Assembly: GCA_012729015.1 (NCBI GenBank)
Contig: JAAYDY010000072.1
Span: forward strand, 8,920-72,919
DNA from: Phycisphaerae bacterium
Lineage (GTDB): Bacteria; Planctomycetota; Phycisphaerae; FEN-1346; JAACEH01
DNA: 64,000 nt
Direction of reading: 5' to 3'
Below the pieces are notes generated by a model that was not told the origin of the DNA, made no database searches, and saw nothing but the letters and a program-made list of their open reading frames with translations. Shown here in pieces: positions 8,767-40,795 of the stretch. A program made the translations under genes and the position numbers. Numbering within the stretch: the first letter of the stretch is position 1; every line of letters begins with the position of its first letter.

Positions 8767-8796
8767 GGCGACGCCGCAGGGTGGCTGATCCGACAG

Positions 8797-22243: not shown

Positions 22244-22357
22244 GCAATTCTGGTCTGATCCGGCCATGGTCAAGGAGCTCGTCCAAGAAGTCGAGTTCGT
22301 TAGCTGCCAGCCCGTGGCCTGCGATTCATTCATCAGCCGCTCGCGGGAGACCTTCAT
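22244..22357 (-). pseudogene. Probable truncated AbiEii-type toxin gene remnant
   Basis: The ATG at 22357 overlaps the AbiEi stop (ATGA). The frame reads MKVSRERLMNESQATGW..., which resembles AbiEii/DUF1814 N-termini, but stops after 37 codons. Too short to appear in the ORF track. Confidence 0.35.
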
Positions 22358-23154
22358 ACCACCTCCTCCCAGACCCGTTCAGTCAACTGCTTTGGAACGA
22401 TCAGATTCCAGTCGCCTACCAGTTCTCCGCCCTTGCCGCGGTCCAGGTAGTGGGGCTGCTTGGGCCGCAGCTTCCGCAGGGGTTCAAGATGCCGGCTTTC
22501 CACCATTAGCGATTGTGCATGCCGCTCTAGGTAGTAGCCCACCGCAGCCGCAGTCGTACGGTTGTTCAGCAGCTTGGCGTATTCGACCACCAAGTCTAAG
22601 TCGAAGTATTCGACCGACTCCAGTGACCGCCACACCTCTTCCCAGCCTCCGCCCAAATCTTGGCGGTCGTGCAAATCGACGAGCGTTCGCTCGAGGCTTG
22701 CCACCCGGACGTCCACTCCCGATCGTTCGACGTTCGTCGTGGCGAAGAACGGCTTGTTCCGCTCGCGCAAGGCCTTGGGGAACAGGACGCATTCGAATCG
22801 GTACGCCCGGAAGCTTGCTGGGCGGTGCAGCCGAGCACTCTGGAAGAAGTACCGTTCGAACACGGAGTGGGCCTTGCCATGGACCTCAAGGGCCGTATGG
22901 TAGGCCAGGACTGCATCTTCGGCCAGCTTCGCCGCCACCAGGTAGGGGTCAACGGGGCAGGTTTCCGGATCGCCGCCGGGCGGGACAACCGCATACAATC
23001 CCCGCCGCACCCGAAGAAGCCGTCCTTCCTTGAGATAGTAGGACAACAGTGCCTCACGGGAGCGCTTGTTGCGTGAGTGCTTCTGGTCGAGATACGCCTG
23101 AAGTTCTTCCAAGGTAAGAACGGGCCTGTTGGAAACCAGTTGCTGGAGTGTCAT
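22354..23154 (-). CDS. AbiEi-family type IV toxin-antitoxin antitoxin / transcriptional regulator
   Basis: ORF 22354..23523, trimmed to MTLQQLVSNRPVLTLEELQAYL.... It continues GRLLRVRRGLYAVVPPG...YLVAAKLAEDAVLAYHTALEVHG...VRVASLERTLVDL, the typical AbiEi architecture. Confidence 0.75.
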   Translation of the reverse strand: MTLQQLVSNRPVLTLEELQAYLDQKHSRNKRSREALLSYYLKEGRLLRVRRGLYAVVPPGGDPETCPVDPYLVAAKLAEDAVLAYHTALEVHGKAHSVFERYFFQSARLHRPASFRAYRFECVLFPKALRERNKPFFATTNVERSGVDVRVASLERTLVDLHDRQDLGGGWEEVWRSLESVEYFDLDLVVEYAKLLNNRTTAAAVGYYLERHAQSLMVESRHLEPLRKLRPKQPHYLDRGKGGELVGDWNLIVPKQLTERVWEEVV

Positions 23155-23392
23155 GACGACCCTCACTTGACGATACACGACGAAACCCATAGTCTCATTA
23201 AGTGCTACGTCGAACAAGTTCAAGTGTCGGCCTTCCCCGCCGCACACTTGATGAAACCCGACGAAACACCGCATTATATTACGTGTTTCGTCTGGTTTTG
23301 TCAAGACACAAGGAGTCTCGTAAGCCGTTGCTCCGTCACTCGCACTGGACACCATCATGGCCTCCGCCAGGCAAACGCCCGTCTTGACAGCC

Positions 23393-23459
23393 AGCAGTGC
23401 GGTGGTGGGCGAGATGTCGGCCCCTTGCAGATTGAATATCCGATCTTCAATCTGCAAGA
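23393..23459 (+). repeat. Repeat R2: second copy of the hairpin element
   Basis: Stem ttgcagattga (23425-23435), 11-nt loop, stem tcaatctgcaa (23447-23457). About 80% identical to R1 over about 67 nt, in the same orientation. Confidence 0.8.
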
Positions 23460-23551
23460 CCCACGCACCGGCTAGAGCCCCTCGCGGCACCCAAATGGCC
23501 GCCGCGTGACTAATCCTTGACACTTGCTTGGATTAGTCTACCATTTGTAAC

Positions 23552-24157
23552 ATGGCTGAAGAAACCAAGATGCGCCGGCTCCTGGAGTTTGTGGAGCGGC
23601 ACGGCGTGGTGCATGCCCGCGACCTGAAGTCGCTGGGCGTACCTCGGGAGTATCTCCGTCGGCTGTGCGACCGAGGGGTTCTGGTCAGAACTGGCCGCGG
23701 CCTTTACCTGACACCGAGAGCCGCCGACACCGCTCATCTTGACTTGGCTCAGGTTGCAAAGGCGATTCCCAATGCGGTAATCTGCCTGGTGTCGGCTCTT
23801 CAGTTTCACGAGATAGGCACACAGATACCCCACGATGTCTGGCTGGCACTCGACCGCCGCGCCGCTCGGCCCGCCGTTACCTACCCGCCAGTACGCATTG
23901 TACGTTTCTCCGGCAAAGCCCTGACCGAGGGCGTACAGCAGCACGATATTGTCGGCGTCCGGGTGAATGTCTACGGGCCGGCCAAGACGGTGGCGGACTG
24001 CTTCAAGTACCGCAACAAGGTCGGTCTCGACGTGGCGCTGGAAGCCCTGCGGGACGTTCGGCGCACACGCCGCTGCACAAACGACGAGCTCTGGACCTAC
24101 GCGGAGATCTGCCGCGTGACGAATGTCATGCGGCCCTACATGGAGGTCATCGGATGA
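23552..24157 (+). CDS. AbiEi_4-like antitoxin-domain protein
   Basis: 201-aa ORF. RRLLEFVERHGVVHARDLKSLGVPREYLRRLCDRGVLVRTGRGLYLTP is a wHTH of AbiEi_4 type. Its stop overlaps the next start (ATGA at 24154-24157). Confidence 0.7.
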   Translation: MAEETKMRRLLEFVERHGVVHARDLKSLGVPREYLRRLCDRGVLVRTGRGLYLTPRAADTAHLDLAQVAKAIPNAVICLVSALQFHEIGTQIPHDVWLALDRRAARPAVTYPPVRIVRFSGKALTEGVQQHDIVGVRVNVYGPAKTVADCFKYRNKVGLDVALEALRDVRRTRRCTNDELWTYAEICRVTNVMRPYMEVIG

Positions 24158-24471
24158 GCGGACGGAAGGCTAACGTCTACTTCAAGAATCGTCTGGCGGG
24201 TCAACTCCACGAGACAGACTGCGGCTTTGTGTTTCAGTATGATCCGGTCTACCTTGCCAATGGCAAGCCTATCTCCCTCACGCTACCAGTGCGGGCGGAG
24301 CCGTATGTGAGCGAGAAGTTGCCGTCGTTCTTTGAGGGACTGCTACCTGAGGGCTGGTACGAGGAGATCGTGTCCAAGGTTCTGAAGGTCGACCCTGTAG
24401 ATCGGTTTGGCATGCTGCTGGCCACGTGTCGGGACTGTGTCGGCGCCGCATCTATCGAACCGGCAGAGTAG
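24154..24471 (+). CDS. HipA N-terminal-domain protein (HipS-like), no kinase partner
   Basis: 105 aa. VYFKNRLAGQLHETDCGFVFQYDPVYL...LPSFFEGLLPEGW matches the HipA N-subdomain signature. The gene ends 62 nt from the convergent hsdM stop, leaving no room for a HipA/HipT kinase domain. Confidence 0.7.
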   Translation: MSGRKANVYFKNRLAGQLHETDCGFVFQYDPVYLANGKPISLTLPVRAEPYVSEKLPSFFEGLLPEGWYEEIVSKVLKVDPVDRFGMLLATCRDCVGAASIEPAE

Positions 24472-24532: not shown

Positions 24533-26074
24533 TCATGCACCAGGTTCCAGGTCATTGGCTATGGCGTTAAACTGCTCCAACGCCGCCTGAAGATCATCGG
24601 CAATCTCGGTGGCCAACACGTCCGGCTCAGGCAGGTTCTCGCCGTCCTCCAAGCTCTCGTCCCGCAGCCAGAACAGGTCCAGGCTCACCTTGTCCCGTTT
24701 CAGCAGGTCCTCGTAGTCGTAGCACCGCCAGCGGCCATCGGGATTCTTCTCCTCATCCCATGTGGCCTTCCGCTTGCCGATGGCTCCCGGCTTGTAGCAC
24801 GCGACGAACTCGTCAAAATCACGCCGCCGAATCGGGTCCTGCTTGAGCGTGAAGTGCATGTTGGTCCGCAGATCGTAGACCCACAGCTTGCTCGTCCATG
24901 CCTGCTCGCGGCCCGGCTTCTTGTCGAAGAAGATGACATTGGCCTTCACACCAGGCGAATACCAGATGCCCGTCGGCAAGCGGATCAGCGTGTGCACGTC
25001 GCACTGCGTCAGCAACTGCCGACGGACCTTCTCACCGGCCCCGCCCTCGAAGAGCACGTTGTCGGGTACCACCACTGCCGCCCGACCGTTGATCGCCAGC
25101 AGCGAGTTGATGTGCTGGACGAAGTTCAGCTGCTTGTTGCTGGTCGGTGCCCAGAAGTCCTCGCGAACAACGACCTGTTTCTCCTTCTCCAACTCCCCGT
25201 CCTCGTTGACGTAGGACACGCTGGACTTCTTGCCGAACGGTGGATTGGTCAGCACCATCGAGTACCGCCGTCCCCACGCCTTGGCCAGGCTGTCGTGCCC
25301 GGCGTGGACCGGGCTGTCATCGCCACCGATCCCGTGCAGGTAGAGGTTCATGGCACAGAGCCTGGCTGTGTTCGGCACCAGTTCCATGCCTTCGACCAGC
25401 TTCTCCTTCACCCGCTTAAGCTGGGACCGGTTCATGTCCTTGCCGTGATGGTCGATCACGTACTGATAGGCGGCCAGCAAGAAGCCGCCGGTGCCGGCCG
25501 CCGGGTCGCAAATGCCGTCGTCGGGCGTGGGCTGCATCACGTCGACGACAGCCTCGATGACCGGCCGGGGGGTGAAATACTGGCCAGCCCCTTTGGGACT
25601 CTCGGCTGCCGACCGCTGTAGCAGTTCCTCGTAGATGGTTCCCTTCACATCAGCCCCGAGGCCCATCCAGTTGTCCCGGTCGATCAGGTCAACGATCAGC
25701 CGCCGGAGTTTCGCCGGGTCGGCAATCTCGTTCTTGGCCTTCAGGAAGATGGTCCCCAGCATGCCGCCCCGCTTGCCGAGTTCCTCCAGCGTCTTCCGGT
25801 AATGAGCCTCCAGGTCCACGCCGTCCCGCTTGACGAGGTTCGGCCAGTCATACGGAGCCGGCACGATGGGCTTCTGATCGTAAGGCGGCTTCGTCACTTC
25901 ATCTGCCATCTTCAGAAAGAGCAGGTACGTGATCTGCTCAATGTACGCCTGGTAGCTCAACCCGTCGTCCCGCAGAACGTGGGCGAAGCTCCATGCCCGG
26001 TTGCCGATTTGCGAAGTGTCCAGACTCACTTTGCCCCCATGGCCTGTGGCCAACCATCCTTCTCGCGACTTCAA
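24533..26074 (-). CDS. hsdM: Type I restriction-modification system, N6-adenine DNA methyltransferase subunit
   Basis: 513-aa ORF with LFLKMADE, GQYFTPRPV, DPAAGTGGFL and the catalytic VLTNPPFG. The longest ORF starts at a TTG (26074); the GTG at 26029 is an alternative. Confidence 0.95.
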   Translation of the reverse strand: MKSREGWLATGHGGKVSLDTSQIGNRAWSFAHVLRDDGLSYQAYIEQITYLLFLKMADEVTKPPYDQKPIVPAPYDWPNLVKRDGVDLEAHYRKTLEELGKRGGMLGTIFLKAKNEIADPAKLRRLIVDLIDRDNWMGLGADVKGTIYEELLQRSAAESPKGAGQYFTPRPVIEAVVDVMQPTPDDGICDPAAGTGGFLLAAYQYVIDHHGKDMNRSQLKRVKEKLVEGMELVPNTARLCAMNLYLHGIGGDDSPVHAGHDSLAKAWGRRYSMVLTNPPFGKKSSVSYVNEDGELEKEKQVVVREDFWAPTSNKQLNFVQHINSLLAINGRAAVVVPDNVLFEGGAGEKVRRQLLTQCDVHTLIRLPTGIWYSPGVKANVIFFDKKPGREQAWTSKLWVYDLRTNMHFTLKQDPIRRRDFDEFVACYKPGAIGKRKATWDEEKNPDGRWRCYDYEDLLKRDKVSLDLFWLRDESLEDGENLPEPDVLATEIADDLQAALEQFNAIANDLEPGA

Positions 26075-26077
26075 CGC

Positions 26078-26605
26078 TTAACTTCTGCTTCCCATCAGCC
26101 GCCTGGCTTCTTCCCGAGCGGCTTGGGTGAACCTCTTCTCCACCTCGTCAACAGTCCGCAGAGCATCAAGGAATGGCCCCACGTATTCCTTGCCGTCGAA
26201 GTTGCCGGCTTTGTACTGGTCTTTGAACGCCCCGAGTATTGTGCTGATGCGGTCTCTCACGTCGTGTACCTGGCCGGCGTACTCCTTCAAGTGTTCGAAG
26301 TGCAGCGACACCAACATCCTGATGGTCTCGTAGTGTCGATTCTCTTCGTCTGACCGATGACGATTGATCGTGATGTCGAGGGCTTGGTTGTAACTGATCT
26401 CGCCCATCATCACTTTGGCGTAATGGGCGTGCTCCGACACCAGGAGCTTACAGAAGCCAGAGAAGGCCATGAACAACTGTTCGAGTTTCTGCCGCCTGAT
26501 GGCCCTGTCGTCCCTGCTGACCGAGAGCCTATGTGCAACCATTGCAGCGACGACCCCGCTGCACACCACCGTAAGGACTGCGAGAAGTACCTGCGGACCG
26601 CTCAT
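26078..26605 (-). CDS. Hypothetical single-pass membrane protein wedged between hsdS and hsdM
   Basis: 175-aa ORF with N-terminal TM segment PQVLLAVLTVVCSGVVAAMVA. Its ATG overlaps the hsdS stop (ATGA at 26602-26605), and its stop lies 3 nt before the longest hsdM ORF. Confidence 0.5.
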   Translation of the reverse strand: MSGPQVLLAVLTVVCSGVVAAMVAHRLSVSRDDRAIRRQKLEQLFMAFSGFCKLLVSEHAHYAKVMMGEISYNQALDITINRHRSDEENRHYETIRMLVSLHFEHLKEYAGQVHDVRDRISTILGAFKDQYKAGNFDGKEYVGPFLDALRTVDEVEKRFTQAAREEARRLMGSRS

Positions 26606-28191
26606 GGCTTCGTCCTCCGGGTCTTCTTGCGGGGGCGTGTGGGCTTGGCCTTTGGCTTGGCGGCGTTCTGGGCCTGGCGTTCGGACCGGATGCGTTCGAG
26701 GAGGGCCGAGGCCGGTTCGTCGTTGGGGTCCTGGGCGACGAGCTTGCCCTCGAAGGCCCGCTTCAGGATGCTCTGACGCAGGCGGACGGCTCGTCGCAGC
26801 TGCTTCTCGACGGCATGTTCTGCAGACTCAATGACCGACATTCGCTCTTCCACCATGCTGACAATCTCACGGAGTTCAGTTAGCGAGGGAAGCGGAAGCA
26901 CCTGATTCAGAATGTGGCCAGTTGATACCCGCTGATGACCGGCACTCGACTTGGCTAACGCCTCAATGCGTCGCCTGATCATGGAGGATGCAAAGCAGAC
27001 CACAAGGTAGTCGGCCAGATCGTTCATGAGCGGTTTTCCGCAGAAGATACGATCCGGGAATGCGACTCGTCTTCGATTCAGGCCCCTTACAGTCGAGCAG
27101 ACGGCGACATACTCAATGCTGCCGCTCAGCCGGGTAAAAAGAACATCCCCGTTGCACAGAATGCATTGCTCCCCATCTGCCTTCGCGTCAGGGACATACC
27201 GCACGTCGTCCAAGTCTAAACGACCGGGCCGGACGGAGCTTGACCTCAGTATGGGAAGTGTGGTCGACTCATCCTGCGGCACAACGGTGGAGCCACTGCG
27301 GAGTTCCGACAGCAGGTGGTTACACGTTGCCCAGCACCATCCGGGAGGCAGGTCGGGGAGGCCGGTTGTGTCGGGGGCGGCGGGGGGCTGGTACTTGGCC
27401 TCGACCTTCTTGCGTTCGGCGGGCAGCTTGTCGGCGATCTTGGCTTCGTCCCAGCCGGCCTTCTGCTTGCGGGCCTTCCAGGCGTCGAGCTGGTCGGCGA
27501 TCCACCGTTTGCGGCGTTCGACAAGGATTCGCTCCAGCAGGACCTCGGCCGGCTCAACGTCCGGATGCTCGGCCCGCCACGCAGCAGTCAGCCGCCCCTC
27601 GACGGCCGCCTTGAGCACGCTGGACCGATACCGCTTCAGATTCTTCCGCACCCGTCCCAACGCCGCCACGCCTGCATCCAGGTCTGTCAACAACTCCTCA
27701 ATCTTCTCCACAATCCGCCGCTGCTCGTCCCCGGGAGGAATCAGAAGCTCTGACGCCTCGAACTTCCCCTTCGTGATGTGAGCCAGCCCAGCAGCGCCAT
27801 GTGCTGCCGCAATGTACTCGGCTAGATTCTGATTGATCGCGTACCTGAGAAACCGCTTGTCGATCTCTGCGTCGTTGAACTCAATGCGGAAGATGTGCTG
27901 GTTCAGCAAGGCTGGCCCACGGTTCCAGATGTGTGCCCCGAAAGACGTACCTGGAGTGCCGGACCAGGCAAACAGGAGATCGCCATCACGCACGTGATAC
28001 TTGTTCGCAATCCTGTCTGGACAATGGTTAAACTCGGCTTGGGTGTCGTTGAGATTCTGAATGCGGATGATGGGAAGGCCCTCGCCTTTCCAGTGCGACG
28101 GCTTGAAGGCAAAACCATTGACGAGTGTCATCAATTCGCCAACACGTGCCTTCGTCCAACCCTGCGGAAGCTGTCCATCGTTACTGCTCAA
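26602..28191 (-). CDS. hsdS: Type I R-M specificity subunit (two target-recognition domains, long central coiled coil)
   Basis: 529-aa ORF, TTG start. LPQGWTKARVGEL and LPPGWCWATCNHL open the two TRDs. Conserved helices are QRRIVEKIEELLTDLDAGVAAL and REIVSMVEERMSVIESAE. TRD2 DNA is visibly lower in GC. Confidence 0.9.
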   Translation of the reverse strand: MSSNDGQLPQGWTKARVGELMTLVNGFAFKPSHWKGEGLPIIRIQNLNDTQAEFNHCPDRIANKYHVRDGDLLFAWSGTPGTSFGAHIWNRGPALLNQHIFRIEFNDAEIDKRFLRYAINQNLAEYIAAAHGAAGLAHITKGKFEASELLIPPGDEQRRIVEKIEELLTDLDAGVAALGRVRKNLKRYRSSVLKAAVEGRLTAAWRAEHPDVEPAEVLLERILVERRKRWIADQLDAWKARKQKAGWDEAKIADKLPAERKKVEAKYQPPAAPDTTGLPDLPPGWCWATCNHLLSELRSGSTVVPQDESTTLPILRSSSVRPGRLDLDDVRYVPDAKADGEQCILCNGDVLFTRLSGSIEYVAVCSTVRGLNRRRVAFPDRIFCGKPLMNDLADYLVVCFASSMIRRRIEALAKSSAGHQRVSTGHILNQVLPLPSLTELREIVSMVEERMSVIESAEHAVEKQLRRAVRLRQSILKRAFEGKLVAQDPNDEPASALLERIRSERQAQNAAKPKAKPTRPRKKTRRTKP

Positions 28192-29397
28192 TCACACGTC
28201 TCCTGCCAGGTCCAGCAAGTCCTCGTAGCGTGTCGCTACTGCCGCCTTGAACGACAGAACCTTCTTCACGTCCCTGTCGTCCCTGAGCTTCTTCAGGATT
28301 CCCAATTCACGCGAACCAGACCCCTCAATGATCCGCCGGATGATCGGGGCCGCCCGGTCGCTGTAGAACACCTCCCGAACATGCCCGTATCTGGTGAGAC
28401 CGCCTGGCGTTCCGACGTAGCAGAGCACGAGCCACTTCAGGATCTCCGTGGCCACCTCGTCGGATTGACACTGCGTTAAGCCGCCGACGTCTTCGAGTTC
28501 CTCCAGCGGCGGTGGATGACGTTCATAGTTGCTCCAGCCATGGCCGACTTCGCGGAGACGCCCGAGCAGCCCCGAGAAGAAGTCGTTACGCGTGGCCTGC
28601 TTCAGGTATGCCATTGCCCCTGCGGCGTGGGCCACTTTCATAACGGCCAAAGTGGGCACGGCACGACCGACACGGCCCTGCAGATCAGCCGCTGCGGCAA
28701 TCCTCACCGGAGTACGAGTAGCTCCGGCCAGGTGTTTGATCATCTCGAGTGCGTTGACCCGAACTACGTCGGGTTTCTCTGTATCTAGGGCAGATGACAC
28801 CAGAAAGAGCATGATCTCGCGTTGGCGAGGTTCCGGAGCATTTGCATAGTCGTCGAGGAACTGCTGCTCGGGAAACTGAGGGCGGTCTTGTTCAATCGCG
28901 TCCTTCACATCGGTCACGCGAAGCAGCTGAACCGGATCGCGGCTCAGGACAGCCTCGATGCACGTCTTGAAGATGTAGACGCAGTCCTCAAGGCCGGCTT
29001 CGTACTCATCGTCCTCGTGTTCCAGGTCCCGCCGGATGTCGTAGCACCGTTTGAGCTTCCTCCACTCGGCTCGCGTCAGGAGTCCCATCCGATAGGCCAA
29101 GTCCATGATCTTGTCGTTGGAGTAGTTCTCGATGTCCTCCGGCTTGCTGACGGGCGGCAGCTTGTGTATCTCCGCGGCCTGCTTGGCGATGTCCAAACCG
29201 GCGATGACGATCTTCTCGCGAAGATCATGTATTGCTGCATTCAGCAGACGCTGGCATGCACTGCTGGGGTCCACAGGCATGAGTCGGGTGACTCGCTCGA
29301 TGAGAGAACGATCCGCCCATGCCGGCCTGATCTGGGCAAGGAGGGCCTGTGCTGGGGCAAGTTCCGCTTCTCTCTCAATGGGAAGATCGTCTGCCAT
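28192..29397 (-). CDS. Hypothetical 401-aa protein inside the hsd operon; N-terminal helical region with an Rx4H (HEPN-like) motif
   Basis: ORF whose TGA directly abuts the hsdS TTG. RRDLEH (residues 122-127, nt 29017-29034) lies in an all-helical context, ...WRKLKRCYDIRRDLEHEDDEYEAGLEDCVYIFKTCIEAVL. No other motif recognised. Confidence 0.55.
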   Translation of the reverse strand: MADDLPIEREAELAPAQALLAQIRPAWADRSLIERVTRLMPVDPSSACQRLLNAAIHDLREKIVIAGLDIAKQAAEIHKLPPVSKPEDIENYSNDKIMDLAYRMGLLTRAEWRKLKRCYDIRRDLEHEDDEYEAGLEDCVYIFKTCIEAVLSRDPVQLLRVTDVKDAIEQDRPQFPEQQFLDDYANAPEPRQREIMLFLVSSALDTEKPDVVRVNALEMIKHLAGATRTPVRIAAAADLQGRVGRAVPTLAVMKVAHAAGAMAYLKQATRNDFFSGLLGRLREVGHGWSNYERHPPPLEELEDVGGLTQCQSDEVATEILKWLVLCYVGTPGGLTRYGHVREVFYSDRAAPIIRRIIEGSGSRELGILKKLRDDRDVKKVLSFKAAVATRYEDLLDLAGDV

Positions 29398-29438
29398 AGA
29401 CAGCCCTCATCTTGCACACCACTGGGATTCGCCCGTGA

Positions 29439-30200
29439 CTACTGGAAGTACTGGGAGGCTTCGCCGCGATGCTGCTGTGCTCTCCCCTGGCTGTAGGGTA
29501 CCGGCAGGCTTCCTGCTACGGCTTGTGCCAAGTAGGCATCGATCTCGGTTCGCAGACCAACAATCCGTGCTACGTGATTCGCATCATTTGGATTCCACCA
29601 CTTCCACCAGTTATTGGCCATGACGTTGGCGGCGTTCTGGAATGGAGCATCAACGGAGGGATCGGTGCAAACGCCATACGGTGCGGCCTTGGTTTCGGCC
29701 TCGTAGGCAAGAACAATGGCTTCTCCTATGGCGATACCAGCAGAGTAGCGGGGATTATACTGCATGGCCAGCGTGCCTTGGAGCAGGTCTGCACCCAAGA
29801 GCAGCTTGCCCCGAGCCACACCACAGCGGTAGAAGCAGCGATGGACCGTGTTGGCCTTCATGAAATGGCAGGCCAACCTCCTGAAGACACGTTGCACATA
29901 GTCCCTGACGCTCCTACTCTCATCAGACACTGCATAGAACCCGTCGATTACGGGGTAAACGGACACATACGTGGACCTCTCTTCCAGTGCCGCAGCGTGG
30001 AGCCGGCCAACATGGTTGGCGGCTCGAGCAAGCGACGCTTTCATGTGATTCCTTGCTCCCATCAGGTCGATCCATGCGACGGTTCGGGTCTTGGCGGCTC
30101 GGCCCAGATTAGATGCATCAAAGTAGACATCCTTCTCGCTGGACCACGGACTAACGCCAGGCGATCCGACCGCTCCGCTAATCGCTCCCGCTCTGGTCAT
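29439..30200 (-). CDS. Hypothetical 253-aa protein with class III nucleotide-cyclase-like motifs, coupled to hsdR
   Basis: Its ATG overlaps the hsdR stop (ATGA at 30197-30200). VAWIDLMGARNHM, YPVIDGFYAVS, FYRCGVARGKLLLG and IAIGEAIVLAYEAE occur in the order and spacing of the cyclase beta1 metal-Asp, beta2 metal-Asp, RIGIHxG and GxxVNxAARxE elements. Confidence 0.45.
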   Translation of the reverse strand: MTRAGAISGAVGSPGVSPWSSEKDVYFDASNLGRAAKTRTVAWIDLMGARNHMKASLARAANHVGRLHAAALEERSTYVSVYPVIDGFYAVSDESRSVRDYVQRVFRRLACHFMKANTVHRCFYRCGVARGKLLLGADLLQGTLAMQYNPRYSAGIAIGEAIVLAYEAETKAAPYGVCTDPSVDAPFQNAANVMANNWWKWWNPNDANHVARIVGLRTEIDAYLAQAVAGSLPVPYSQGRAQQHRGEASQYFQ

Positions 30201-33016
30201 GCCACAAGCCTTTCGTTTAGCTCCGCCAAGATCGTATCGAGACGATCACCGAACAGCTGATAGGCCCGGCCGAGGTCGCCATGCTGGGCGAACCATCCGA
30301 GGGAGAAGTCCTCACGCTCGACGCGGACGCTGGTGGCGATAGCCTGGGCGATCTGGTCCAGCCACTGCCGCTGCTCTGGCGTGAAGGTCACGCCCATCTT
30401 GCCTTGCTCGTCAAGCCACCTCTGATAGCGTTCCATGACCACCGTGGCGAATGGCGTGAGCGGTTCGTCGGGGTGGATGGCGTGGAGGATCAGCGTGACG
30501 ATGTCGGCCAGCTGGCGGCCGCCGGAACCGCGGACCTTGGACTTGTCCAGGGCCTCGTAGGCGTGCCACAGAAGCTCGGGCGTGGCCTCCAGCGGGGGCC
30601 GCTGGATCAGTTGGGCGATGGACTTGATGTCGTCGAAGTCGACCTTGTTGCCGTAGCGGCGGGAGTAGATCAGTTCCAGGGCCATGATTTCGGCCTTGTT
30701 CTCCTCGATCCACTGGCGGAACGTCTCGATCTTGCCGCGGGCCTTCTCCTGGGCGGCGGCGTCGAAACCGGCGATGGTCACCTCGTCGAGGCTGATGCGG
30801 TCGATGGTCTGTTCATTGGCCGCCTTGATCTCCAGCAAGCGGTTGCGGAGTTCCGGGTTGTGAAGCGGCATGACGGCGGTGCGGGCCAGAGACTCGGCCG
30901 CATGGTCAATCTGTTCCTGCGTGGGCTGGGTGTCATCGGCCAGGCCGTTGGCGGATCGGGCTTCCTCAAGCTGGCGGTCGGGATCAACGGCGGCCACCAG
31001 TGCCCCGGCCAGGTCGGAGAGCGTCTTGCCGCCGGCCAGGTCCGCCAGTTCGCGTTTCTGGGGATCGGTGATCTCCTGGTCGAGCCGAGCCAGGCGAGCG
31101 GCCAGCGTGCTGAGGGCATCGGGATCGGTGCCGCCCATGGCCACATAGTTCAGGAGCTTCTTCAGCGAGACGCTGGGCTGGCGGTTGAGCGGGGCCGAGT
31201 CGGTCTTGTCGTGTTCGCACACGCCCACGCAGTCGACGATCACGAAGCGACTCTTGGCCTTGGCGTCGGGCGTGACGGCCTTGAGGTCGTCGGGGCGGAT
31301 GACGCGGACGCCGCGACCCTTCATCTGCTCGAAGAAGTTGGCCGACTTGACGTTCCGCATGAACATGACAATCTCCAGAGGCTTCACGTCGGTACCCGTG
31401 GCCACCATGTCGACCGTGACGGCAATCCGGGGGTTGAAGCTGAGGCGGAAGGCAGTCAGCACGTCGTCGGGCGTCATGGCGGAGACCTTCTTCCAGGTGT
31501 GGCCGCCACCCTCGGTCGGCACCCGCATGAAGCCCGTGCGGTAAGTGATCTTCTGGCAGAAGTCGTTCCCGCGGCCGAACTCCTCGCGGATGATGTTGAC
31601 GATGTCCTCGGCGTGCGAGTCGTCCTTGGCGAAGATGAGCGTCTTCGGGACCTCGGTGCGGCCGGGGAAGATGTCGGTGAAGAGCTTGTCGCGGAAAGTG
31701 CGGATGACCGTGCGAATCTGGTCCACCGCCACCACGTCGCGGTCGAGCTGGTTGGCCGTGTAGGTCAGGTCGTCGTCGAGTTGCTCGTAGCGGACGCGGC
31801 GGGTCAGGCGGTCGCGTTTGTCGACCAACTGGCCGGCGTCGATGGTCTCCCCGGACTCAGTGATCTTGGTGCTGATGCGGTACACGTCGTAGTTGACGTT
31901 CACGCCGTCGGCCACGGCCTCGGGGTGGGTGTACTCCATGACCAGGTTGCGGTTGAAGAAGCCGATGGTCTGCTTGCTGGGCGTAGCCGTGAGGCCGATG
32001 ATGTAGGCGTCGAAGTAGTCGAGCACTTGACGCCAGAGGTTGTAGATGCTCCTGTGACATTCGTCGACAACCACGAAGTCGAACGTCTCGATAGGCACGT
32101 TCGGATTATAGGCGATGGGCGGTGGTGGAGCGGACAGCGGGATGCCGGAGTCGAACATCGATCCCTCTTCGACGGCCGGGTCGAGTTCTGCCTCGCCCCG
32201 GAGGATCGAATAGAGTCGCTGCACCGTTGTGATGACCACACGGTTGACCGTACCGATGCTGTTCGTGCTGAGTCGCTGGATGTTGTAGATTTCGGCGAAG
32301 GTGCGGCCGTCGTCCGGTGTGCGGAACTGGCGGAACTCGGTCTCGGTCTGGCGGCCCAGGTTCGTGCGGTCGACCAGGAAGAGGACCCGCCGGGCATCGG
32401 CGTGCTTGATGAAGCGGTAGACGAAGTTGGCAGCGGTGAACGTCTTGCCGCTGCCGGTCGACATCTGGATCAGGGCCTTGGGGCGGTCCAGGGCCATGGA
32501 CTGCTCCAATTGGGCAATCGCTCGGATTTGGGCTTTCCACAGGCCCTCGGTCACCAGTGGCGGCATCTGCCGCAGGCGACCCCTGAGTTGCTGGCCGTCG
32601 TTGGCCCAGTCGAGCAGCGTCTCTGGCCGGTGGAAGTGAAACAGGTCCCGGCTGCGGGGATCGGGATCGCGATTGTCAGTGAACCGGGTTTCCTCGCCCG
32701 TGGACTCGTAGGCGAACGGAAGCGGCCGGGCGTAGGCAGGCAGGTCGTCAGGCAGCCCCTCGGAGTAGCGGGCCGACTGTGGCTCGACGCCGGTCAGCGT
32801 GTGTCCCACAGCCTTGGCCTCGACCACGCCGACAGCCTTGGCATCGACGTAGAGCAGGTAATCCGTGAAACCGAAGCCGGACTTCAGGGGGAACTCACGG
32901 ACCGCGATGCCCCGTCCAGCGGCCAGGTTCAGCCCGGACATCGACTGGACGATCCACCCCGCCGCGGCCAGCTTGGCGTCGATGTTTTCACGAGCTTGGG
33001 CTTCTGGACTCGGCAC
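30197..33016 (-). CDS. hsdR: Type I restriction enzyme R subunit (nuclease + SF2 helicase + EcoEI-type C-terminal domain)
   Basis: 939-aa ORF with a GTG start and GAGGTGG upstream. Motifs: ARENIDAKLAAAGW, nuclease DYLLYVDAKAVGVVEAKA, helicase MSTGSGKTFTA, VVVDECHRS, GLTATP and QMKGRGVR. Confidence 0.95.
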   Translation of the reverse strand: MPSPEAQARENIDAKLAAAGWIVQSMSGLNLAAGRGIAVREFPLKSGFGFTDYLLYVDAKAVGVVEAKAVGHTLTGVEPQSARYSEGLPDDLPAYARPLPFAYESTGEETRFTDNRDPDPRSRDLFHFHRPETLLDWANDGQQLRGRLRQMPPLVTEGLWKAQIRAIAQLEQSMALDRPKALIQMSTGSGKTFTAANFVYRFIKHADARRVLFLVDRTNLGRQTETEFRQFRTPDDGRTFAEIYNIQRLSTNSIGTVNRVVITTVQRLYSILRGEAELDPAVEEGSMFDSGIPLSAPPPPIAYNPNVPIETFDFVVVDECHRSIYNLWRQVLDYFDAYIIGLTATPSKQTIGFFNRNLVMEYTHPEAVADGVNVNYDVYRISTKITESGETIDAGQLVDKRDRLTRRVRYEQLDDDLTYTANQLDRDVVAVDQIRTVIRTFRDKLFTDIFPGRTEVPKTLIFAKDDSHAEDIVNIIREEFGRGNDFCQKITYRTGFMRVPTEGGGHTWKKVSAMTPDDVLTAFRLSFNPRIAVTVDMVATGTDVKPLEIVMFMRNVKSANFFEQMKGRGVRVIRPDDLKAVTPDAKAKSRFVIVDCVGVCEHDKTDSAPLNRQPSVSLKKLLNYVAMGGTDPDALSTLAARLARLDQEITDPQKRELADLAGGKTLSDLAGALVAAVDPDRQLEEARSANGLADDTQPTQEQIDHAAESLARTAVMPLHNPELRNRLLEIKAANEQTIDRISLDEVTIAGFDAAAQEKARGKIETFRQWIEENKAEIMALELIYSRRYGNKVDFDDIKSIAQLIQRPPLEATPELLWHAYEALDKSKVRGSGGRQLADIVTLILHAIHPDEPLTPFATVVMERYQRWLDEQGKMGVTFTPEQRQWLDQIAQAIATSVRVEREDFSLGWFAQHGDLGRAYQLFGDRLDTILAELNERLVA

Positions 33017-33222: not shown

Positions 33223-36156
33223 TTAGCAGCCGGGCTGCCTGTCACGCCGGTCCATCGAATGCGGCGAATCGCCCGCCGCAGGCTCCGATTTCGTCAGAAC
33301 TGCAAGCTGGAAACGAAGTCCGGCGGCGGCCGACTCCGGCAAGGGCACTCGGGCGGCCAGTTTCTCGGCCGCACAAACGTCGTTCGCATACTCGTCGTAC
33401 TCTTCGCCCATCAGGATGCTGAACCATCGACGGCGGTCGACGACCACGCGATACATCTTCTCATCCTGGGTCTGGCTGACGTAGGGCAGGAAGACCTGGA
33501 TCGACCTGCCGCAGACTTCCGCCTTGGCCCCGATCCGGTCGATTCGGCCGGTCCGCTGCTCCAACGTGCTGGGATTCCAGCAGAGGTCGTGGTGGATGAC
33601 GTGTCGGCAGTTGAGGTGCAGGTCGACGCCTTCGGCCATGACACTGCTGGCGACGAGAATCTCCGGATAGAACGGGGTGTTGAAGGTAAGCATCAGCCTC
33701 TGGCGGGTGATTTGTCGGGTGCTGCCATTGACCAGGCGGACATTCGGCAGCAGTGCTTCCGTGCCCGCCTGCTGGAGTTCATCGTCGGAGTAGTAGGAGG
33801 CCAGCCTTTCACCGATGTGCGATCCGGTCTGCACTGACAGGAGGGCCTCGACGTACCGGTCGATCAGCTCCGGCTCGCCCAGACGGTGGGCCAGGAACTC
33901 GAAAAAGTTGCGGAGTTGCTGACGAAGAGAAAGACCGGACGCGTCTTCCGTCTCAAGGGCCTGACGGACGGAGTCCTCATCCTGCCGCGTGCGTTCCAGC
34001 GGGAAGAACCGGGCCAGGAAGGAGGGCGTCCGCAGATTCCTTCGGACAATCTCCACAAGGTCATCGCAGCGACCGGCCAGTGGCGGAAACTCGGAGAGGA
34101 TGGCTCTGATTTCATGGTCGCAGGCCCGACGCACGGGAGAGTCCGTGTCGAAGAAGCGGTCCCCCAGACGCTCCAACTCGATCTCTGCCTCTGTGGTGGG
34201 ACATCCCAGCTTGGCTGCGGCCTGTTCGGCTGTCTTTCGGCGAATGGCCTCGGAGATGCGTTCACGAAGGGCTCGACCGGTAGCCACGTAGTGGCAGAAG
34301 ACAACCACCTTCTCGCCCCGAGCCCACGTCTCAACAGCCCGTTGCACTGTAGCCGCAATCTTGGGGTGCCCGGCCATGGCGAGCGGATCGTTTCGAGGCA
34401 GGAACTTCTCGAGCTGAGCCAGGTACCACATAGCCGTCTTGTCGATGGCTGATTTCACCGGCGGGTCGTCGTCACCGTCGAGAATCGAGTTCACATCGGC
34501 TTCGGCACCTGCCGGGTCCTTAGCCACGCGTTGCCGAGTCAGCAGAAAGGCCTCATAACTGGAGGCAAGACCTTCGGCGAAGACCGGCCGCGACTTGGGC
34601 GTGCAGGCCGTCGCCCGGGCAGCCAGCAGGAACGGCAACAGGCTCTGCCCCTGAATGGAGATGCCTTCACTGCTACCGGGGTTGCCATCGCCAACGAGAA
34701 GAATCCGCCGGCCGGGTAGTTCATCTCTTCGCGGCACCCCTTGGAACGGATTTGGAAGAGCCTTGGGCCTTACGTGCCTGATGACCCACGGGGCGAGGAC
34801 CTCCTCGGCCCGTTTCATAGAGGGCTGCACGCGGCTGAAGCACGACAGAACTTCCTGCAACTTAGGCGACACATCACGGCCATTCATCGCGGCAGGCCAC
34901 CAGTCGTCCTCGGGAGAGTGCGGCACACCGTCGATCTTCAGATCTGACTCGTCCAACCGGCTCCAGACCTTGTCCAGTGTCAGCGATGACTGCTGGGCTG
35001 CGTCAAGCCGGCGGCGAAGCTCGCTAACCTGCTCCAGGAAGGTCTTGCGGGACTGCGAGTCCGCCATCCGGGTTCCGGAGAACCGCTCGATCACCGAGCA
35101 GAGTTCGTGATGCCCCAGTTGGAACGGCGTGGCCGTCAGAAAGAGCATCCGCTCGAACACGCCATGCAGAGCTCCCCGCTCGACGATGGCGGCGTCATCC
35201 TGGGCTTCGGACACCTGAAACAGGCCGGCCAGCCGCGTGCCCGGATTCTTCAGGTGATGGGCCTCGTCGAGAATCAACAGCGGCAGGCGGAATCTCATCC
35301 GCTGGATGGCCAGATCCCAGAGCTTGCGGATTTCATCCCGGATGGCATGACGGGCCTGCTTCAGATGCCATTCGTAGTGCTTCGTCTGTCGCTGAGGAAC
35401 GTCCCGATTGAGAACCGCGTAGAGTTCATCGGTGTCCCGAGCCCTCAGCTTCTCGAGCACGGCCAGCAGAGCCGCCGGCACAGGGTCATCGTCGTTATCG
35501 GGGTTTCCGTCTCCCTCCGGATCGACGTCCCAGGCATGGAGCACCGTCAGCCAGTCGGACGGCAGTTTTCTCAGCAACTCCTCCCACATCTCGGGGTCTC
35601 TGTCCGCCCGACCCAGCCTGAGCAGACGGCCGGCCGTGCGGCCCAGCACCCGTCGCAGTTGTTTCGTTTGGTGCCGACCGTGAAGAGCCCGGTGAATGAA
35701 GGCCAGCTTCATCCAGCCATCATCCAGTGCCCGGTTCATTGCTCCGTGCGTAAGGAAGATGAGACTGCTCCGCCGATCCTTCGGATCGTCAAGCAACTTC
35801 AGGAACGTGGTGGCCTTGTCGGCTTTGCCATAACGCAGTCTGGCCTGAGCCTCCTGGGGCAGACACCGTTTGCGAAACAGCTCGAAGTCGTGCGGCCACT
35901 TCTCCTTCAGCGACGGAGGAACCATAGCGACCACCGGCCGACCGCCAGCGTCATTGAGGGCAACGGAGGCCGCAACCGCCAGGGCTACAAATGTCTTGCC
36001 CATCCCGACTTCATCCGCCAGAACCAGTCCCGGCTGTTTCGCCAACCGGCGCAGAATCTCACCGGCGGTCGCGGTCTGCCGGCTCGCGTCTTCGGAGGAG
36101 ATGCGGCCTTCGATGTACAGGTTGAGGCCTGAGAACAAGGGGTGTTGCCATGTCAT
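33223..36156 (-). CDS. SNF2-family helicase (977 aa)
   Basis: Motifs LADEVGMGKTFVALAVA, LLILDEAHHLKN, LFLTATPFQ, ILVASSVMAEGVDLH, HHDLCWNPSTLEQRTGRIDRIG. Its ATG overlaps the stop of the PLD gene (ATGA at 36153-36156). Confidence 0.9.
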   Translation of the reverse strand: MTWQHPLFSGLNLYIEGRISSEDASRQTATAGEILRRLAKQPGLVLADEVGMGKTFVALAVAASVALNDAGGRPVVAMVPPSLKEKWPHDFELFRKRCLPQEAQARLRYGKADKATTFLKLLDDPKDRRSSLIFLTHGAMNRALDDGWMKLAFIHRALHGRHQTKQLRRVLGRTAGRLLRLGRADRDPEMWEELLRKLPSDWLTVLHAWDVDPEGDGNPDNDDDPVPAALLAVLEKLRARDTDELYAVLNRDVPQRQTKHYEWHLKQARHAIRDEIRKLWDLAIQRMRFRLPLLILDEAHHLKNPGTRLAGLFQVSEAQDDAAIVERGALHGVFERMLFLTATPFQLGHHELCSVIERFSGTRMADSQSRKTFLEQVSELRRRLDAAQQSSLTLDKVWSRLDESDLKIDGVPHSPEDDWWPAAMNGRDVSPKLQEVLSCFSRVQPSMKRAEEVLAPWVIRHVRPKALPNPFQGVPRRDELPGRRILLVGDGNPGSSEGISIQGQSLLPFLLAARATACTPKSRPVFAEGLASSYEAFLLTRQRVAKDPAGAEADVNSILDGDDDPPVKSAIDKTAMWYLAQLEKFLPRNDPLAMAGHPKIAATVQRAVETWARGEKVVVFCHYVATGRALRERISEAIRRKTAEQAAAKLGCPTTEAEIELERLGDRFFDTDSPVRRACDHEIRAILSEFPPLAGRCDDLVEIVRRNLRTPSFLARFFPLERTRQDEDSVRQALETEDASGLSLRQQLRNFFEFLAHRLGEPELIDRYVEALLSVQTGSHIGERLASYYSDDELQQAGTEALLPNVRLVNGSTRQITRQRLMLTFNTPFYPEILVASSVMAEGVDLHLNCRHVIHHDLCWNPSTLEQRTGRIDRIGAKAEVCGRSIQVFLPYVSQTQDEKMYRVVVDRRRWFSILMGEEYDEYANDVCAAEKLAARVPLPESAAAGLRFQLAVLTKSEPAAGDSPHSMDRRDRQPGC

Positions 36157-40046: not shown

Positions 40047-40080
40047 TTGACAGCGTGTGGAAGACACACTATCATAGTGT
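40047..40080 (+). promoter_or_regulatory. Putative sigma70 promoter with overlapping palindromic operator (candidate NrtR box) upstream of nrtR
   Basis: TTGACA (40047-40052), 17-nt spacer, TATCAT (40070-40075). The perfect palindrome ACACTAT-C-ATAGTGT (40066-40080) covers the -10, 26 nt before the nrtR ATG. Confidence 0.4.
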
Positions 40081-40105
40081 AGGACTCACACGAACGAGGT
40101 GGCGA

Positions 40106-40795
40106 ATGCCATTTACCTACGACTATCCTCGACCAGCGCTCGCCGTGGACTGCGTGGTCTTCGGACTGGACGAAGAGGACTTGAAGGTCCTGTTGATCCG
40201 CCGGGGGCAGGAGCCGTATGCGGGCCGCTGGGCGTTGCCCGGCGGTTTCGTTCGCGAGAACGAGTCTCCCGCAGCCGCTGCCCGTCGCGAACTGCACGAG
40301 GAAGCCGGTCTGCGTGACGTGTACCTGGAGCAGTTGTACACGTTCGGCGCGCCGGGCCGCGATCCACGCGGCCACGTGATCAGTGTGGCCCACTATGCCC
40401 TGGTCAGGCTCAGCGATCATCGTGTTGCAGCGGCGACGGATGCATCGGATGCCGCCTGGTTCGGCACCGACGACTTGCCCCGGCTGGCGTTCGACCATGG
40501 AGCCATTTTCGAAATGGCCCACGCCAGGCTCAGGGCCAAGGTCCGGTACCAGCCGATCGGGTTCGAGTTGCTGCCCGAGAGGTTCCCGCTGCGGATGCTC
40601 CAGCACCTGTACGAGGTGGTTCTCGACCGTCCACTCGACAAACGGAACTTCCGCAAGAAGGTCCTGGAAATGGGCATCCTCGAGGAACTGGATGAAGTCG
40701 AGACGGACGTTTCACACCGGGCCGCGCGGTTGTACCGTTTCAGCAAGGCACGGTATCAAACGCTGACGAAGAAGGGGTTGAACTTTGAACTCTGA
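40106..40795 (+). CDS. nrtR: Nudix-related transcriptional regulator of NAD metabolism (Nudix domain + C-terminal winged helix)
   Basis: ORF 40055..40795, trimmed to the ATG at 40106 (GAGGTGG upstream). Nudix box [24 protein letters not shown]. The C-terminal part reads [32 protein letters not shown], typical of NrtR. Confidence 0.8.

What the first reader, a model, noticed from the sequence alone, without database searches (positions are those of the whole stretch)
24533..33016. Type I R-M operon with three extra genes wedged between hsdR, hsdS and hsdM
The gene order is hsdR, a 253-aa gene, a 401-aa gene, hsdS, a 175-aa TM gene, then hsdM. The junctions are very tight. hsdR and the 253-aa gene overlap at ATGA (30197-30200). 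The 401-aa TGA abuts the hsdS TTG (28191/28192). hsdS and the TM gene overlap at ATGA (26602-26605). The TM gene and hsdM are separated by 3 nt. The classic precedent is the E. coli prr locus. There the anticodon nuclease PrrC is encoded inside a type Ic hsd operon and is held latent by the R-M complex until phage anti-restriction triggers it. Three embedded, translationally coupled genes of unknown function suggest a more elaborate R-M-guarded backup (abortive-infection) module.
Basis: partly seen in the sequence, partly recalled or inferred. Interest (0 to 1): 0.8.

Follow-up and report, generated by a model that had tools for sequence, protein, structure and literature searches.

The report
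Restriction operon carrying three unrelated passenger genes
This is an intact type I restriction-modification operon with three unrelated, separately acquired genes of unknown function lodged between its own genes; this kind of nesting is already described, and the three are candidate anti-phage genes rather than one three-part system.

Summary
Six co-oriented minus-strand genes, hsdR-A-B-hsdS-C-hsdM, occupy 24533-33016 with the stated junctions. The interpretation of one three-gene, R-M-guarded module is not supported.

A, B and C never co-occur anywhere else. Among 49 complete operons of the same hsdR lineage, 24 are plain hsdR-hsdS-hsdM and 25 carry variable cargo. The hsdS-to-hsdM slot is the main hotspot. 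In sister operons it holds known or candidate defence genes (PDC-S15, PDC-M30/M41, a GmrSD/NsnA-like gene with a RiboL-PSP HEPN gene).

- Gene A (253 aa) belongs to an unannotated family of 457 clusters. It sits in the same coupled position after hsdR in five other genomes whose hsdR genes are polyphyletic. It is absent from 80 metagenomic orthologous operons and also occurs alone on viral contigs.
- Gene B (401 aa) belongs to a large, highly conserved, unannotated family. More than 90% of its members stand alone, but it recurs in or beside at least three other type I lineages. It has an invariant Rx4H motif placed as in HEPN RNases, followed by an alpha-solenoid.
- Gene C is an orphan with one N-terminal membrane helix.

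Gene embedding in type I operons is already described (Payne et al. 2024). This is a new instance of a known kind, of moderate interest.

The parts
30197..33016 (-). hsdR, type I restriction subunit (939 aa) of the EcoEI/EcoAI-related lineage. First gene of the operon.
   Evidence: Pfam ResIII 9e-34, EcoEI_R_C 1e-32, SWI2_SNF2 and HSDR_N. PADLOC REase_I 1e-48. NCBIfam PRK11448 2e-110, below its cut-off. Orthologues at 52-59% identity in 85 other loci. GC3 0.87.
29439..30200 (-). Gene A (253 aa), a member of an unannotated family. Its start overlaps the hsdR stop (ATGA). Invariant D45, D86-G87 and G131.
   Evidence: No Pfam, PADLOC or NCBIfam hit. 457 representative clusters. Invariant columns. 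Same slot after orthologous hsdR in L099, L100, L104, L105 and L108. GC3 0.64.
29398..29438 (-). 41-nt spacer between A and B with a GAGGG Shine-Dalgarno-like sequence. In sister operons the A stop instead overlaps or abuts the hsdS start in three of four (a 21-nt gap in L105), so this marks the upstream edge of the B insertion.
   Evidence: Sequence read. Sister-operon junctions.
28192..29397 (-). Gene B (401 aa), a member of a large, highly conserved, unannotated family. It has an N-terminal all-alpha domain with an Rx4H motif and a C-terminal alpha-solenoid.
   Evidence: More than 1271 homologues. At least 136 species representatives, including archaea. 76 invariant columns in 28 sequences. 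AF2 pLDDT 88.9, all-alpha. Only weak ARM/HEAT matches in fold searches. phrog_27609 2e-12.
29017..29034 (-). Codons for R122-R-D-L-E-H127 of gene B, an invariant Rx4H (HEPN-like) motif at the end of helix 109-127 and followed by a loop.
   Evidence: Invariant in alignment A1. Helix and loop positions from the model. HEPN criteria taken from PMC3710099.
29212..29226 (-). Codons for D58-L-R-E-K62 of gene B. D58 and K62 are invariant, giving an acidic-x3-basic motif in the preceding long helix, comparable to the HEPN Ex3[KR] motif.
   Evidence: with criteria.
26602..28191 (-). hsdS, specificity subunit (529 aa, two target-recognition domains). Its TTG start abuts the B stop.
   Evidence: Pfam Methylase_S 5e-17. 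PADLOC Specificity_I 3e-108, near full length. Junction read.
26078..26605 (-). Gene C (175 aa), an orphan with one N-terminal membrane helix (about residues 5-25, roughly 26531-26593) and a polar tail. It occupies the variable hsdS-to-hsdM cargo slot.
   Evidence: One non-self relative among 5.8 billion proteins. That relative is truncated and not in an hsd context. Hydropathy. No family hit.
24533..26074 (-). hsdM, methyltransferase subunit (513 aa from the TTG start). Last gene of the operon.
   Evidence: Pfam N6_Mtase 3e-63 and HsdM_N. PADLOC MTase_I 4e-181. 57-66% identity to the hsdM of sister operons. GC3 0.83.

Best explanation
The locus is an intact type I R-M operon of an EcoEI/EcoAI-related lineage whose ancestral order is hsdR-hsdS-hsdM. 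Its two internal junctions act as insertion slots for horizontally moving single genes or small cassettes.

Three unrelated passengers are present in this window. Gene A sits in the R-to-S slot. Gene B has been added behind A in the same slot. Gene C sits in the S-to-M slot. They are read through with the hsd genes from the hsdR-proximal promoter, and they most likely act as independent accessory anti-phage genes rather than as one machine.

Inferred, not shown:
- B is a HEPN-type RNase effector fused to a solenoid sensor or regulatory domain. It would work on its own, since most of its relatives stand alone.
- A is a metal-dependent enzyme acting on nucleic acid, with two invariant Asp residues and one relative fused to a cold-shock domain. 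It may or may not be functionally tied to HsdR.
- C is a small membrane-anchored protein about which nothing further can be said.
For: Anatomy and intact hsd genes.

Base architecture and slots:
- Of 49 complete operons of this hsdR lineage, 24 are plain R-S-M, 17 have cargo only in the S-to-M slot, and 8 have cargo in both slots. The R-to-S slot is filled in 11 of 66 loci.
- Cargo in sister operons is defence-type: an FRG-domain protein (PDC-S15), DUF5131 plus a partner (PDC-M30/M41), a GHKL ATPase, GmrSD_N (NsnA/PD-T4-2_A), HEPN_RiboL-PSP and DUF3800.

Independence of A, B and C:
- They do not co-occur elsewhere.
- B stands alone and in about 76 of 82 loci, yet it is embedded in or abuts other type I lineages in L008, L030, L051, L068 and L087.
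- A has no conserved partner outside hsd.
- Both families occur on viral contigs.
- GC3 is 0.87 and 0.83 for hsdR and hsdM, against 0.64-0.73 for A, B, hsdS and C.

Context: the operon lies in a defence island, between a Zac/PDC-M27-like operon and AbiEi genes.

Published framework: embedding of defence genes in type I R-M, 96.7% co-oriented and more than half of unknown function (bioRxiv 10.1101/2024.01.29.577857).

HEPN-like features of B. Cold-shock fusion in the A family.
Against: No experiment or expression data exist. Co-transcription is inferred only from spacing and from the absence of consensus signals.

A defence role for A, B and C rests on context alone.

The HEPN assignment for B failed every profile and structure test available: no Pfam HEPN model hit even at E up to 10, no HEPN structure among Foldseek hits, and no hhalign signal against four HEPN-family proteins.

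B's unusually strong conservation across phyla is atypical for a defence gene.

Gene A's repeated appearance at exactly the same coupled position next to polyphyletic hsdR genes could mean a functional tie to HsdR, which a pure 'independent passenger' view does not explain.
Confidence: 0.72

Rival explanations
1. One reading: A, B and C together form one multi-component abortive-infection module. It is kept latent by the HsdMSR complex and released when a phage anti-restriction protein disables restriction, like an elaborated prr system.
For: Tight, co-oriented packing inside the operon. The same arrangement in four other assemblies of what appears to be the same organism. The PrrC precedent.
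Against: The three genes never occur together elsewhere and have unrelated distributions. The slots they fill hold different cargo in sister operons. More than 90% of B relatives have no hsd neighbour, whereas PrrC is almost exclusively embedded. No component resembles PrrC's ABC ATPase-anticodon nuclease.
Confidence: 0.04
2. Gene A alone is an accessory functionally coupled to the R-M system, acting as a guard or regulator of the EcoEI-type HsdR. B and C are independent cargo.
For: In 5 of 13 reference-genome A loci, plus the window, A lies immediately after an orthologous hsdR. The start and stop overlap or are separated by no more than 5 nt, and hsdS follows directly: overlapping or abutting in three of the four loci where it is resolved, after a 21-nt gap in L105. 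These hsdR genes are polyphyletic among 83 orthologues, so the linkage arose or was kept several times. All linked hsdR genes belong to one family.
Against: None of 80 metagenomic orthologous operons has A, so HsdR does not need it. 8 of 13 reference-genome loci and 10 viral contigs carry A with no hsd and no conserved neighbour. Recombinational exchange of an A-plus-hsdS cassette between conserved hsdR and hsdM arms would give the same pattern without any functional tie. The NJ tree has no support values.
Confidence: 0.17
3. The inserts are not defence genes. They are selfish or neutral hitch-hikers, or regulators, that accumulate in a recombination-tolerant 'genomic sink'.
For: There are no recognisable defence domains. 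C is an orphan. B is unusually conserved and mostly sits among housekeeping genes. The sink hypothesis is discussed in the literature.
Against: Cargo in the same slots of sister operons is overwhelmingly defence-type. A's neighbours elsewhere are conflict-system genes such as AIPR, SMEK_N, Hypoth_Ymh, DUF4145 and an AlwI restriction enzyme. B recurs inside several unrelated type I operons. None of the three resembles a transposase or integrase.
Confidence: 0.15

Closest known systems
Defence genes embedded in type I R-M, BREX and DISARM operons ('guilt-by-embedding'; Payne, Hughes, Fineran and Jackson 2024, bioRxiv 10.1101/2024.01.29.577857)
   Same: Extra genes are nested between hsd genes in the same orientation. 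They include known systems, PADLOC PDC candidates and many unknowns. Sister operons here carry PDC-S15, PDC-M30/M41 and NsnA-like cargo in the same slots.
   Different: A, B and C match none of the PADLOC v2.0.0 models, including the 145 PDCs. Here a single hsdR lineage could be shown to have two defined slots with measured occupancy.
E. coli prr locus (PrrC anticodon nuclease inside the EcoprrI hsd operon)
   Same: An accessory gene is nested inside a type I operon. B, like PrrC's nuclease domain, carries an Rx4-6H-type motif.
   Different: PrrC is an ABC ATPase fused to a HEPN nuclease and is almost always hsd-embedded. None of A, B or C has an ABC ATPase or matches PrrC models, and B is mostly stand-alone. 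Latency under HsdMSR is untested here.
Stand-alone HEPN abortive-infection proteins that are sometimes embedded in R-M operons (Abi2/AbiD/AbiF, ApeA, DUF3644/HEC-08; Anantharaman et al. 2013, PMC3710099)
   Same: B is a single gene with an all-alpha N-terminal domain. It has an invariant Rx4H at the end of a long helix followed by a loop, an upstream invariant acidic-x3-basic motif, and occasional embedding in R-M operons.
   Different: There is no detectable profile or structural similarity to any HEPN family. The residue after R is Arg rather than the usual N, D or H. The C-terminal ARM/HEAT-like solenoid is not a described partner domain.
EcoAI/EcoEI (type IB) restriction-modification systems
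   Same: HsdR carries the EcoEI_R_C domain and partially matches NCBIfam PRK11448 and restrict_EcoAI.
   Different: Scores are well below the equivalog cut-offs (370 against 729 bits, and 173 against 550). The gene order is R-S-M with internal cargo slots.

Membership tests
Type I restriction-modification system | HsdR with an SF2 translocase/nuclease core, HsdM with an N6-adenine methyltransferase domain, and HsdS with two target-recognition domains, all in one locus | tested here: met
   Pfam and PADLOC hits for all three subunits, each full length. Orthologues align end to end.
Type IB (EcoAI/EcoEI) family | Equivalog-level match of HsdR to the EcoAI/EcoEI models | tested here: not met
   NCBIfam PRK11448 scores 370.5 bits against a cut-off of 729. 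restrict_EcoAI scores 172.8 against 550. The EcoEI_R_C domain itself is present at 114 bits against a cut-off of 24. The system is therefore related to type IB but not shown to be a member.
prr-type system (PrrC) | Embedded protein with an N-terminal ABC ATPase and a C-terminal HEPN anticodon-nuclease domain | tested here: not met
   No PADLOC, Pfam or NCBIfam hit for A, B or C. None has a P-loop ATPase domain.
prr-type system (PrrC) | Near-exclusive genetic linkage to a type I hsd operon | tested here: not met
   About 6 of 82 B loci are in or beside type I operons. 5 of 13 reference-genome A loci are linked, and none of 10 viral loci. C's only relative is unlinked.
prr-type system (PrrC) | Kept latent by HsdMSR and activated by a phage anti-restriction factor | not testable with these tools
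   This needs biochemistry or phage genetics.
HEPN superfamily (for gene B) | Conserved Rx4-6H motif | tested here: met
   R122-x4-H127 is invariant in 28 diverse sequences. The same motif was used as the search pattern that recovered 136 loci.
HEPN superfamily (for gene B) | [quoted passage not shown] | tested here: inconclusive
   In the AF2 model the motif ends helix 109-127 and is followed by loop 128-135 and helix 136-151. D58-x3-K62 is invariant in helix 44-66 (criteria).
HEPN superfamily (for gene B) | Profile or structural similarity to an established HEPN family | tested here: not met
   No Pfam HEPN model hit at E up to 10. No HEPN structures in Foldseek PDB or BFVD hits. hhalign probability below 1% against RiboL-PSP, AbiV, DUF4145 and Ymh single sequences, which is a weak test.
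Class III nucleotidyl cyclase / GGDEF palm (for gene A; my own lead from the motif pattern) | Profile similarity to cyclase catalytic domains | tested here: not met
   hhalign of the 51-sequence A family against four authentic cyclase domains gives probability 0.9%, with only a 24-column segment aligned. No Pfam or PDB sequence hit. The AF2 model is unusable at pLDDT 32.
Named or candidate defence systems in PADLOC-DB v2.0.0 | HMM match of A, B or C | tested here: not met
   Zero families for each of the three at E up to 0.01.
Embedded defence candidate in the sense of Payne et al. 2024 | Nested between genes of a known multi-gene defence system, co-oriented, and not a mobilome or housekeeping gene | tested here: met
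   Independent embedded instances exist for A (five other operons) and for B (L008 and L087 embedded; L030, L051 and L068 abutting), but none for C.

The most novel reading that the evidence does not exclude
Gene A is a new kind of R-M-coupled guard specific to EcoEI-type HsdR. It has been captured repeatedly at the same translationally coupled position after hsdR in unrelated hsdR lineages because it senses or depends on HsdR, a PrrC-like logic with an unrelated two-aspartate enzyme. Gene B would then found a new, very widespread HEPN-solenoid family of single-gene defences.
Probability: 0.15. Interest if true: 0.65.

Novelty: new member of a known kind. Interest (0 to 1): 0.35.

Why it matters
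It gives a clean, quantified example of a single type I R-M lineage acting as a carrier with two defined cargo slots, occupied in about half of its members.

It also nominates two unannotated protein families as anti-phage candidates. B has more than 1271 clusters, spans bacteria and archaea, and has no Pfam model or structural neighbour. A has 457 representative clusters.

If B is an active HEPN RNase, it would be one of the more widespread single-gene defences still missing from the catalogues. If A is truly tied to HsdR, it would be a second, mechanistically different example of the prr principle.

As it stands, the finding extends a published pattern rather than revealing a new one.

Tried and rejected
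1. The trio as one module: rejected because the genes do not co-occur elsewhere.
2. Gene A as an integral subunit of this R-M lineage: this looked likely, but none of 80 orthologous operons has it and the A-linked hsdR genes are polyphyletic.
3. Gene A as a class III cyclase/GGDEF-like palm, possibly Pycsar-like. This was my own reading of the motifs and is not supported. The AF2 model failed at pLDDT 32. There were no Pfam or PDB hits with a 51-sequence profile. hhalign gave probability 0.9% against authentic cyclase domains.
4. Gene B fold identification: Foldseek against PDB and BFVD gave only weak ARM/HEAT solenoid matches with TM 0.2-0.3. The PDB sequence profile gave nothing. hhalign against four HEPN-family proteins gave nothing.
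5. Repeats or attachment-like sites flanking the inserts: only chance-level short repeats.
6. Internal promoters or terminators: none on the coding strand.
7. Annotated relatives: B appears only as a 'hypothetical protein' on four Streptomyces plasmids, with none in GenBank phages. A has none on plasmids.
8. The C-terminal extension of A-family member P0143: no PDB match.
9. A bulk Pfam scan of B's neighbours failed on the size limit and was not repeated. tblastn with two hsd probe sets was used instead.

Full report
**Observation.**
- hsdR 30197-33016 (939 aa)
- gene A 29439-30200 (253 aa)
- gene B 28192-29397 (401 aa)
- hsdS 26602-28191 (529 aa, TTG start)
- gene C 26078-26605 (175 aa)
- hsdM 24533-26074 (513 aa, TTG start)

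Base-level reading confirms the ATGA overlap of hsdR and A, the B stop abutting the hsdS TTG, the ATGA overlap of hsdS and C, and the 3-nt C-to-hsdM spacer. The one looser junction is a 41-nt A-to-B gap with a GAGGG ribosome-binding-like sequence.

Pfam and PADLOC identify HsdR (ResIII, EcoEI_R_C), HsdM (N6_Mtase, HsdM_N) and HsdS (Methylase_S, with full-length PADLOC specificity models). All three appear intact. A, B and C give no hit in Pfam, PADLOC or NCBIfam, even at permissive thresholds. The only PHROG match is an unnamed family matching B's N-terminus. C has a single N-terminal hydrophobic helix. A simple scan finds no promoter-like or terminator-like site on the coding strand within the operon.

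**Are the three genes a unit?** No. Their distributions are unrelated.
- B has more than 1271 cluster-level homologues at 44-70% identity in many bacterial phyla and in ANME-1 archaea. All are annotated as hypothetical.
- A first appeared to have only three relatives. An exhaustive profile search then found 457 representative clusters of 230-270 aa.
- C has one relative among 5.8 billion proteins. That relative is truncated and lies next to a prepilin-like gene, not hsd.

In 82 B loci there is no A or C. In 16 A loci there is no B or C. In 80 orthologous hsd operons a six-frame HMM search finds no A and no C, while recovering the positive controls. The only other places with the same A-B arrangement are four assemblies carrying 100%-identical A, evidently the same organism.

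**What the operon is.** I aligned six orthologous HsdR proteins and used the alignment to pull 80 further orthologous loci (53-59% identity) from metagenomes. Calling genes and labelling them with HMM and BLAST probes gave the following:
- The ancestral layout is hsdR-hsdS-hsdM.
- Of 49 complete operons, 24 are plain, 17 carry extra genes only between hsdS and hsdM, and 8 carry extras in both junctions.
- The hsdR-to-hsdS junction is occupied in 11 of 66 loci, and in six of those the occupant is gene A.

The cargo in the three sister operons that also have A is recognisably defence-type:
- L100 carries an FRG-domain protein (PADLOC PDC-S15).
- L108 carries DUF5131 plus a partner (PDC-M30/M41).
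- L104 carries a GHKL ATPase, a GmrSD_N protein (NsnA/PD-T4-2_A), a RiboL-PSP HEPN protein and DUF3800.

In the window, C sits in that variable S-to-M slot. B has been inserted between A and hsdS; in three of the four sister operons where hsdS is resolved, A's stop overlaps or abuts the hsdS start, and L105 has a 21-nt gap.

Codon-position composition agrees with a mosaic origin. GC3 is 0.87 for hsdR and 0.83 for hsdM, against 0.64, 0.71, 0.72 and 0.73 for A, B, hsdS and C. There is a sharp drop at the hsdR/A boundary. No flanking repeats mark the inserts.

The operon lies in a low-GC defence island. On one side is a Zac/PDC-M27-like operon with a PLD-type nuclease and an SNF2 helicase. On the other are two AbiEi genes with a HipS-like fragment.

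**Gene A.** Five of the 13 reference-genome loci with an A relative (Phycisphaerae and Verrucomicrobiota) have A immediately after an orthologous hsdR, with a 4-nt overlap or a gap of no more than 5 nt, followed by hsdS. At first this looked like a conserved subunit. However, the A-linked hsdR genes are scattered in a neighbour-joining tree of 83 orthologues. For example, L100's nearest relatives are the A-less L112 and L114 at 67-69% identity, against about 56% identity to other A-linked genes. None of the 80 metagenomic orthologues has A.

Outside hsd, A has no conserved neighbour. It lies beside a UvrD-like helicase and AIPR genes, DUF4145, an SMEK_N protein, Hypoth_Ymh or a radical-SAM gene. 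It also occurs on ten viral contigs of several unrelated types.

The family has invariant D45, D86-G87 and G131. One member is fused to a genuine cold-shock domain (E = 1.6e-5 to CspC), which hints at a nucleic-acid substrate.

My reading of the motifs as a cyclase/GGDEF-like palm was not supported. The AF2 model was unusable, there were no Pfam or PDB hits, and hhalign probability was 0.9% against authentic cyclase domains.

The correct start of A is the ATG overlapping the hsdR stop. The shorter 201-aa call made in other assemblies removes the invariant motif.

**Gene B.** In 28 diverse members, 76 of 401 positions are invariant. These include IRRDLEHEDDEY (R122-x4-H127) and DPSSACQR..NA..HDL..K (with D58-x3-K62).

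The AF2 model is confident (pLDDT 88.9) and all-alpha. The Rx4H motif ends a 19-residue helix and is followed by a loop and another long helix. Residues from about 178 onward form an ARM/HEAT-like solenoid with a small conserved beta-hairpin.

[quoted passage not shown] B fits these criteria at the level of motif and topology. But no profile or structure search links it to any HEPN family, and I could not analyse the N-terminal domain separately. HEPN is therefore my working assignment, not a demonstrated one.

As for context, B is a stand-alone gene in most genomes. With probes for a second type I family, it proves to be embedded in L008 (hsdM-hsdS-DUF4209/PDC-S39-?-B-?-hsdR) and in L087. It abuts hsdR in L030, L051 and L068. 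These involve at least three hsd lineages besides the window's. It also occurs on Streptomyces plasmids and two viral contigs. A 443-aa cargo protein in L147's S-to-M slot is a marginal distant relative that lacks the motif.

**Comparison with what is known.** Nesting of defence genes inside type I R-M, BREX and DISARM operons has been described systematically. Payne et al. 2024 report 17,432 embedded genes, 96.7% of them co-oriented, and more than half without a clear function. PrrC is the case that is almost exclusively embedded, and many widespread systems are embedded only rarely. The window is a new instance of that pattern.

B behaves like the 'mostly solo, occasionally embedded' class. 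A shows a stronger, position-specific link to one hsdR family. C is uninformative. None of the three is a member of the prr/PrrC family, having no ABC ATPase and no model match. None is in PADLOC v2.0.0.

**Mechanism, with status.**
- Shown: an intact R-S-M operon with three co-oriented, tightly packed inserts. The slots are recurrent cargo sites in this lineage. A, B and C are evolutionarily independent.
- Inferred: the inserts are co-transcribed with hsd. Each acts as an independent accessory anti-phage gene. B is a HEPN-type RNase effector with a solenoid sensor or regulatory domain that works without HsdMSR. A is a metal-dependent enzyme acting on nucleic acid.
- Open: whether A is functionally coupled to HsdR (I give this about 0.17), or whether its fixed position reflects exchange of an A-plus-hsdS cassette between conserved hsdR and hsdM arms.

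**Verdict.** The value lies in two sizeable unannotated families nominated as defence candidates, and in a well-defined two-slot carrier operon, rather than in a new principle.

Noticed in passing
window 33223-39550 (-): A three-gene operon lies directly upstream of hsdR. It encodes a 445-aa protein with no hit, a 687-aa protein with ZacB/PDC-M27B/DrmC-like (PLD-type) matches, and a 977-aa SNF2 helicase matching PDC-M27C, ZacC and DrmD. This is a Zac/PDC-M27-like candidate defence system.
   Followed up: partly
window 22354-24471: An AbiEi-like gene (23552-24157, +) overlaps a 105-aa protein that has only the HipA N-terminal 'Couple_hipA' domain (24154-24471, +). That protein is HipS-like, no kinase gene follows, and it converges on the end of hsdM. 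A second AbiEi gene lies at 22354-23523 (-). No AbiEii toxin partner was looked for.
   Followed up: no
window ~17000-48000: A block with lower G+C (0.58-0.64 against 0.66-0.70 in the flanks) contains all of the above, consistent with a genomic or defence island. The only tRNA in the window is tRNA-Leu(CAG) at 59493-59564 (-), which is not at the island edge.
   Followed up: no
window 40055-40795 (+): A 246-aa protein gives a weak PADLOC PDC-S07 match (5e-9).
   Followed up: no
L008 3759-16333 (Planctomycetota bacterium BJ20): A type I operon of a different family carries four embedded genes between hsdS and hsdR: a DUF4209 protein (PDC-S39), an ORF of up to 294 aa, a gene B homologue (69% identity) and a 457-aa unknown. 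A YgjP-like metallopeptidase gene follows hsdR. L030 has the same B-hsdR-YgjP end.
   Followed up: partly
L147, about 7630-9030 (S-to-M slot of an orthologous operon): A 443-aa cargo protein is a marginal distant relative of the B family (E about 3e-4, aligned over HMM positions 84-309). It lacks the RRDLEH motif at the aligned position.
   Followed up: partly
P0239 (A-family member, 330 aa): It has an N-terminal cold-shock domain fused to the A domain (E = 1.6e-5 to CspC, with many Csp/YB-1 hits). P0143 (514 aa) has an unmatched C-terminal extension of about 250 aa that contains an 'FLVRGRVDL' segment reminiscent of the A-domain motif.
   Followed up: partly
L204-L207 (four ENA assemblies with identical gene A): Automated gene calls start gene A at M53 (201 aa), leaving a 152-nt 'gap' after hsdR. 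This start removes the family-invariant D45 motif and is almost certainly wrong.
   Followed up: yes
L194-L198 and L200 (IMG/VR contigs, G+C about 0.39): Five of the six contigs (L194-L198) form one low-GC viral lineage that carries an A-family gene at the same position with the same neighbours. L200 shares only one small adjacent ORF with them.
   Followed up: no
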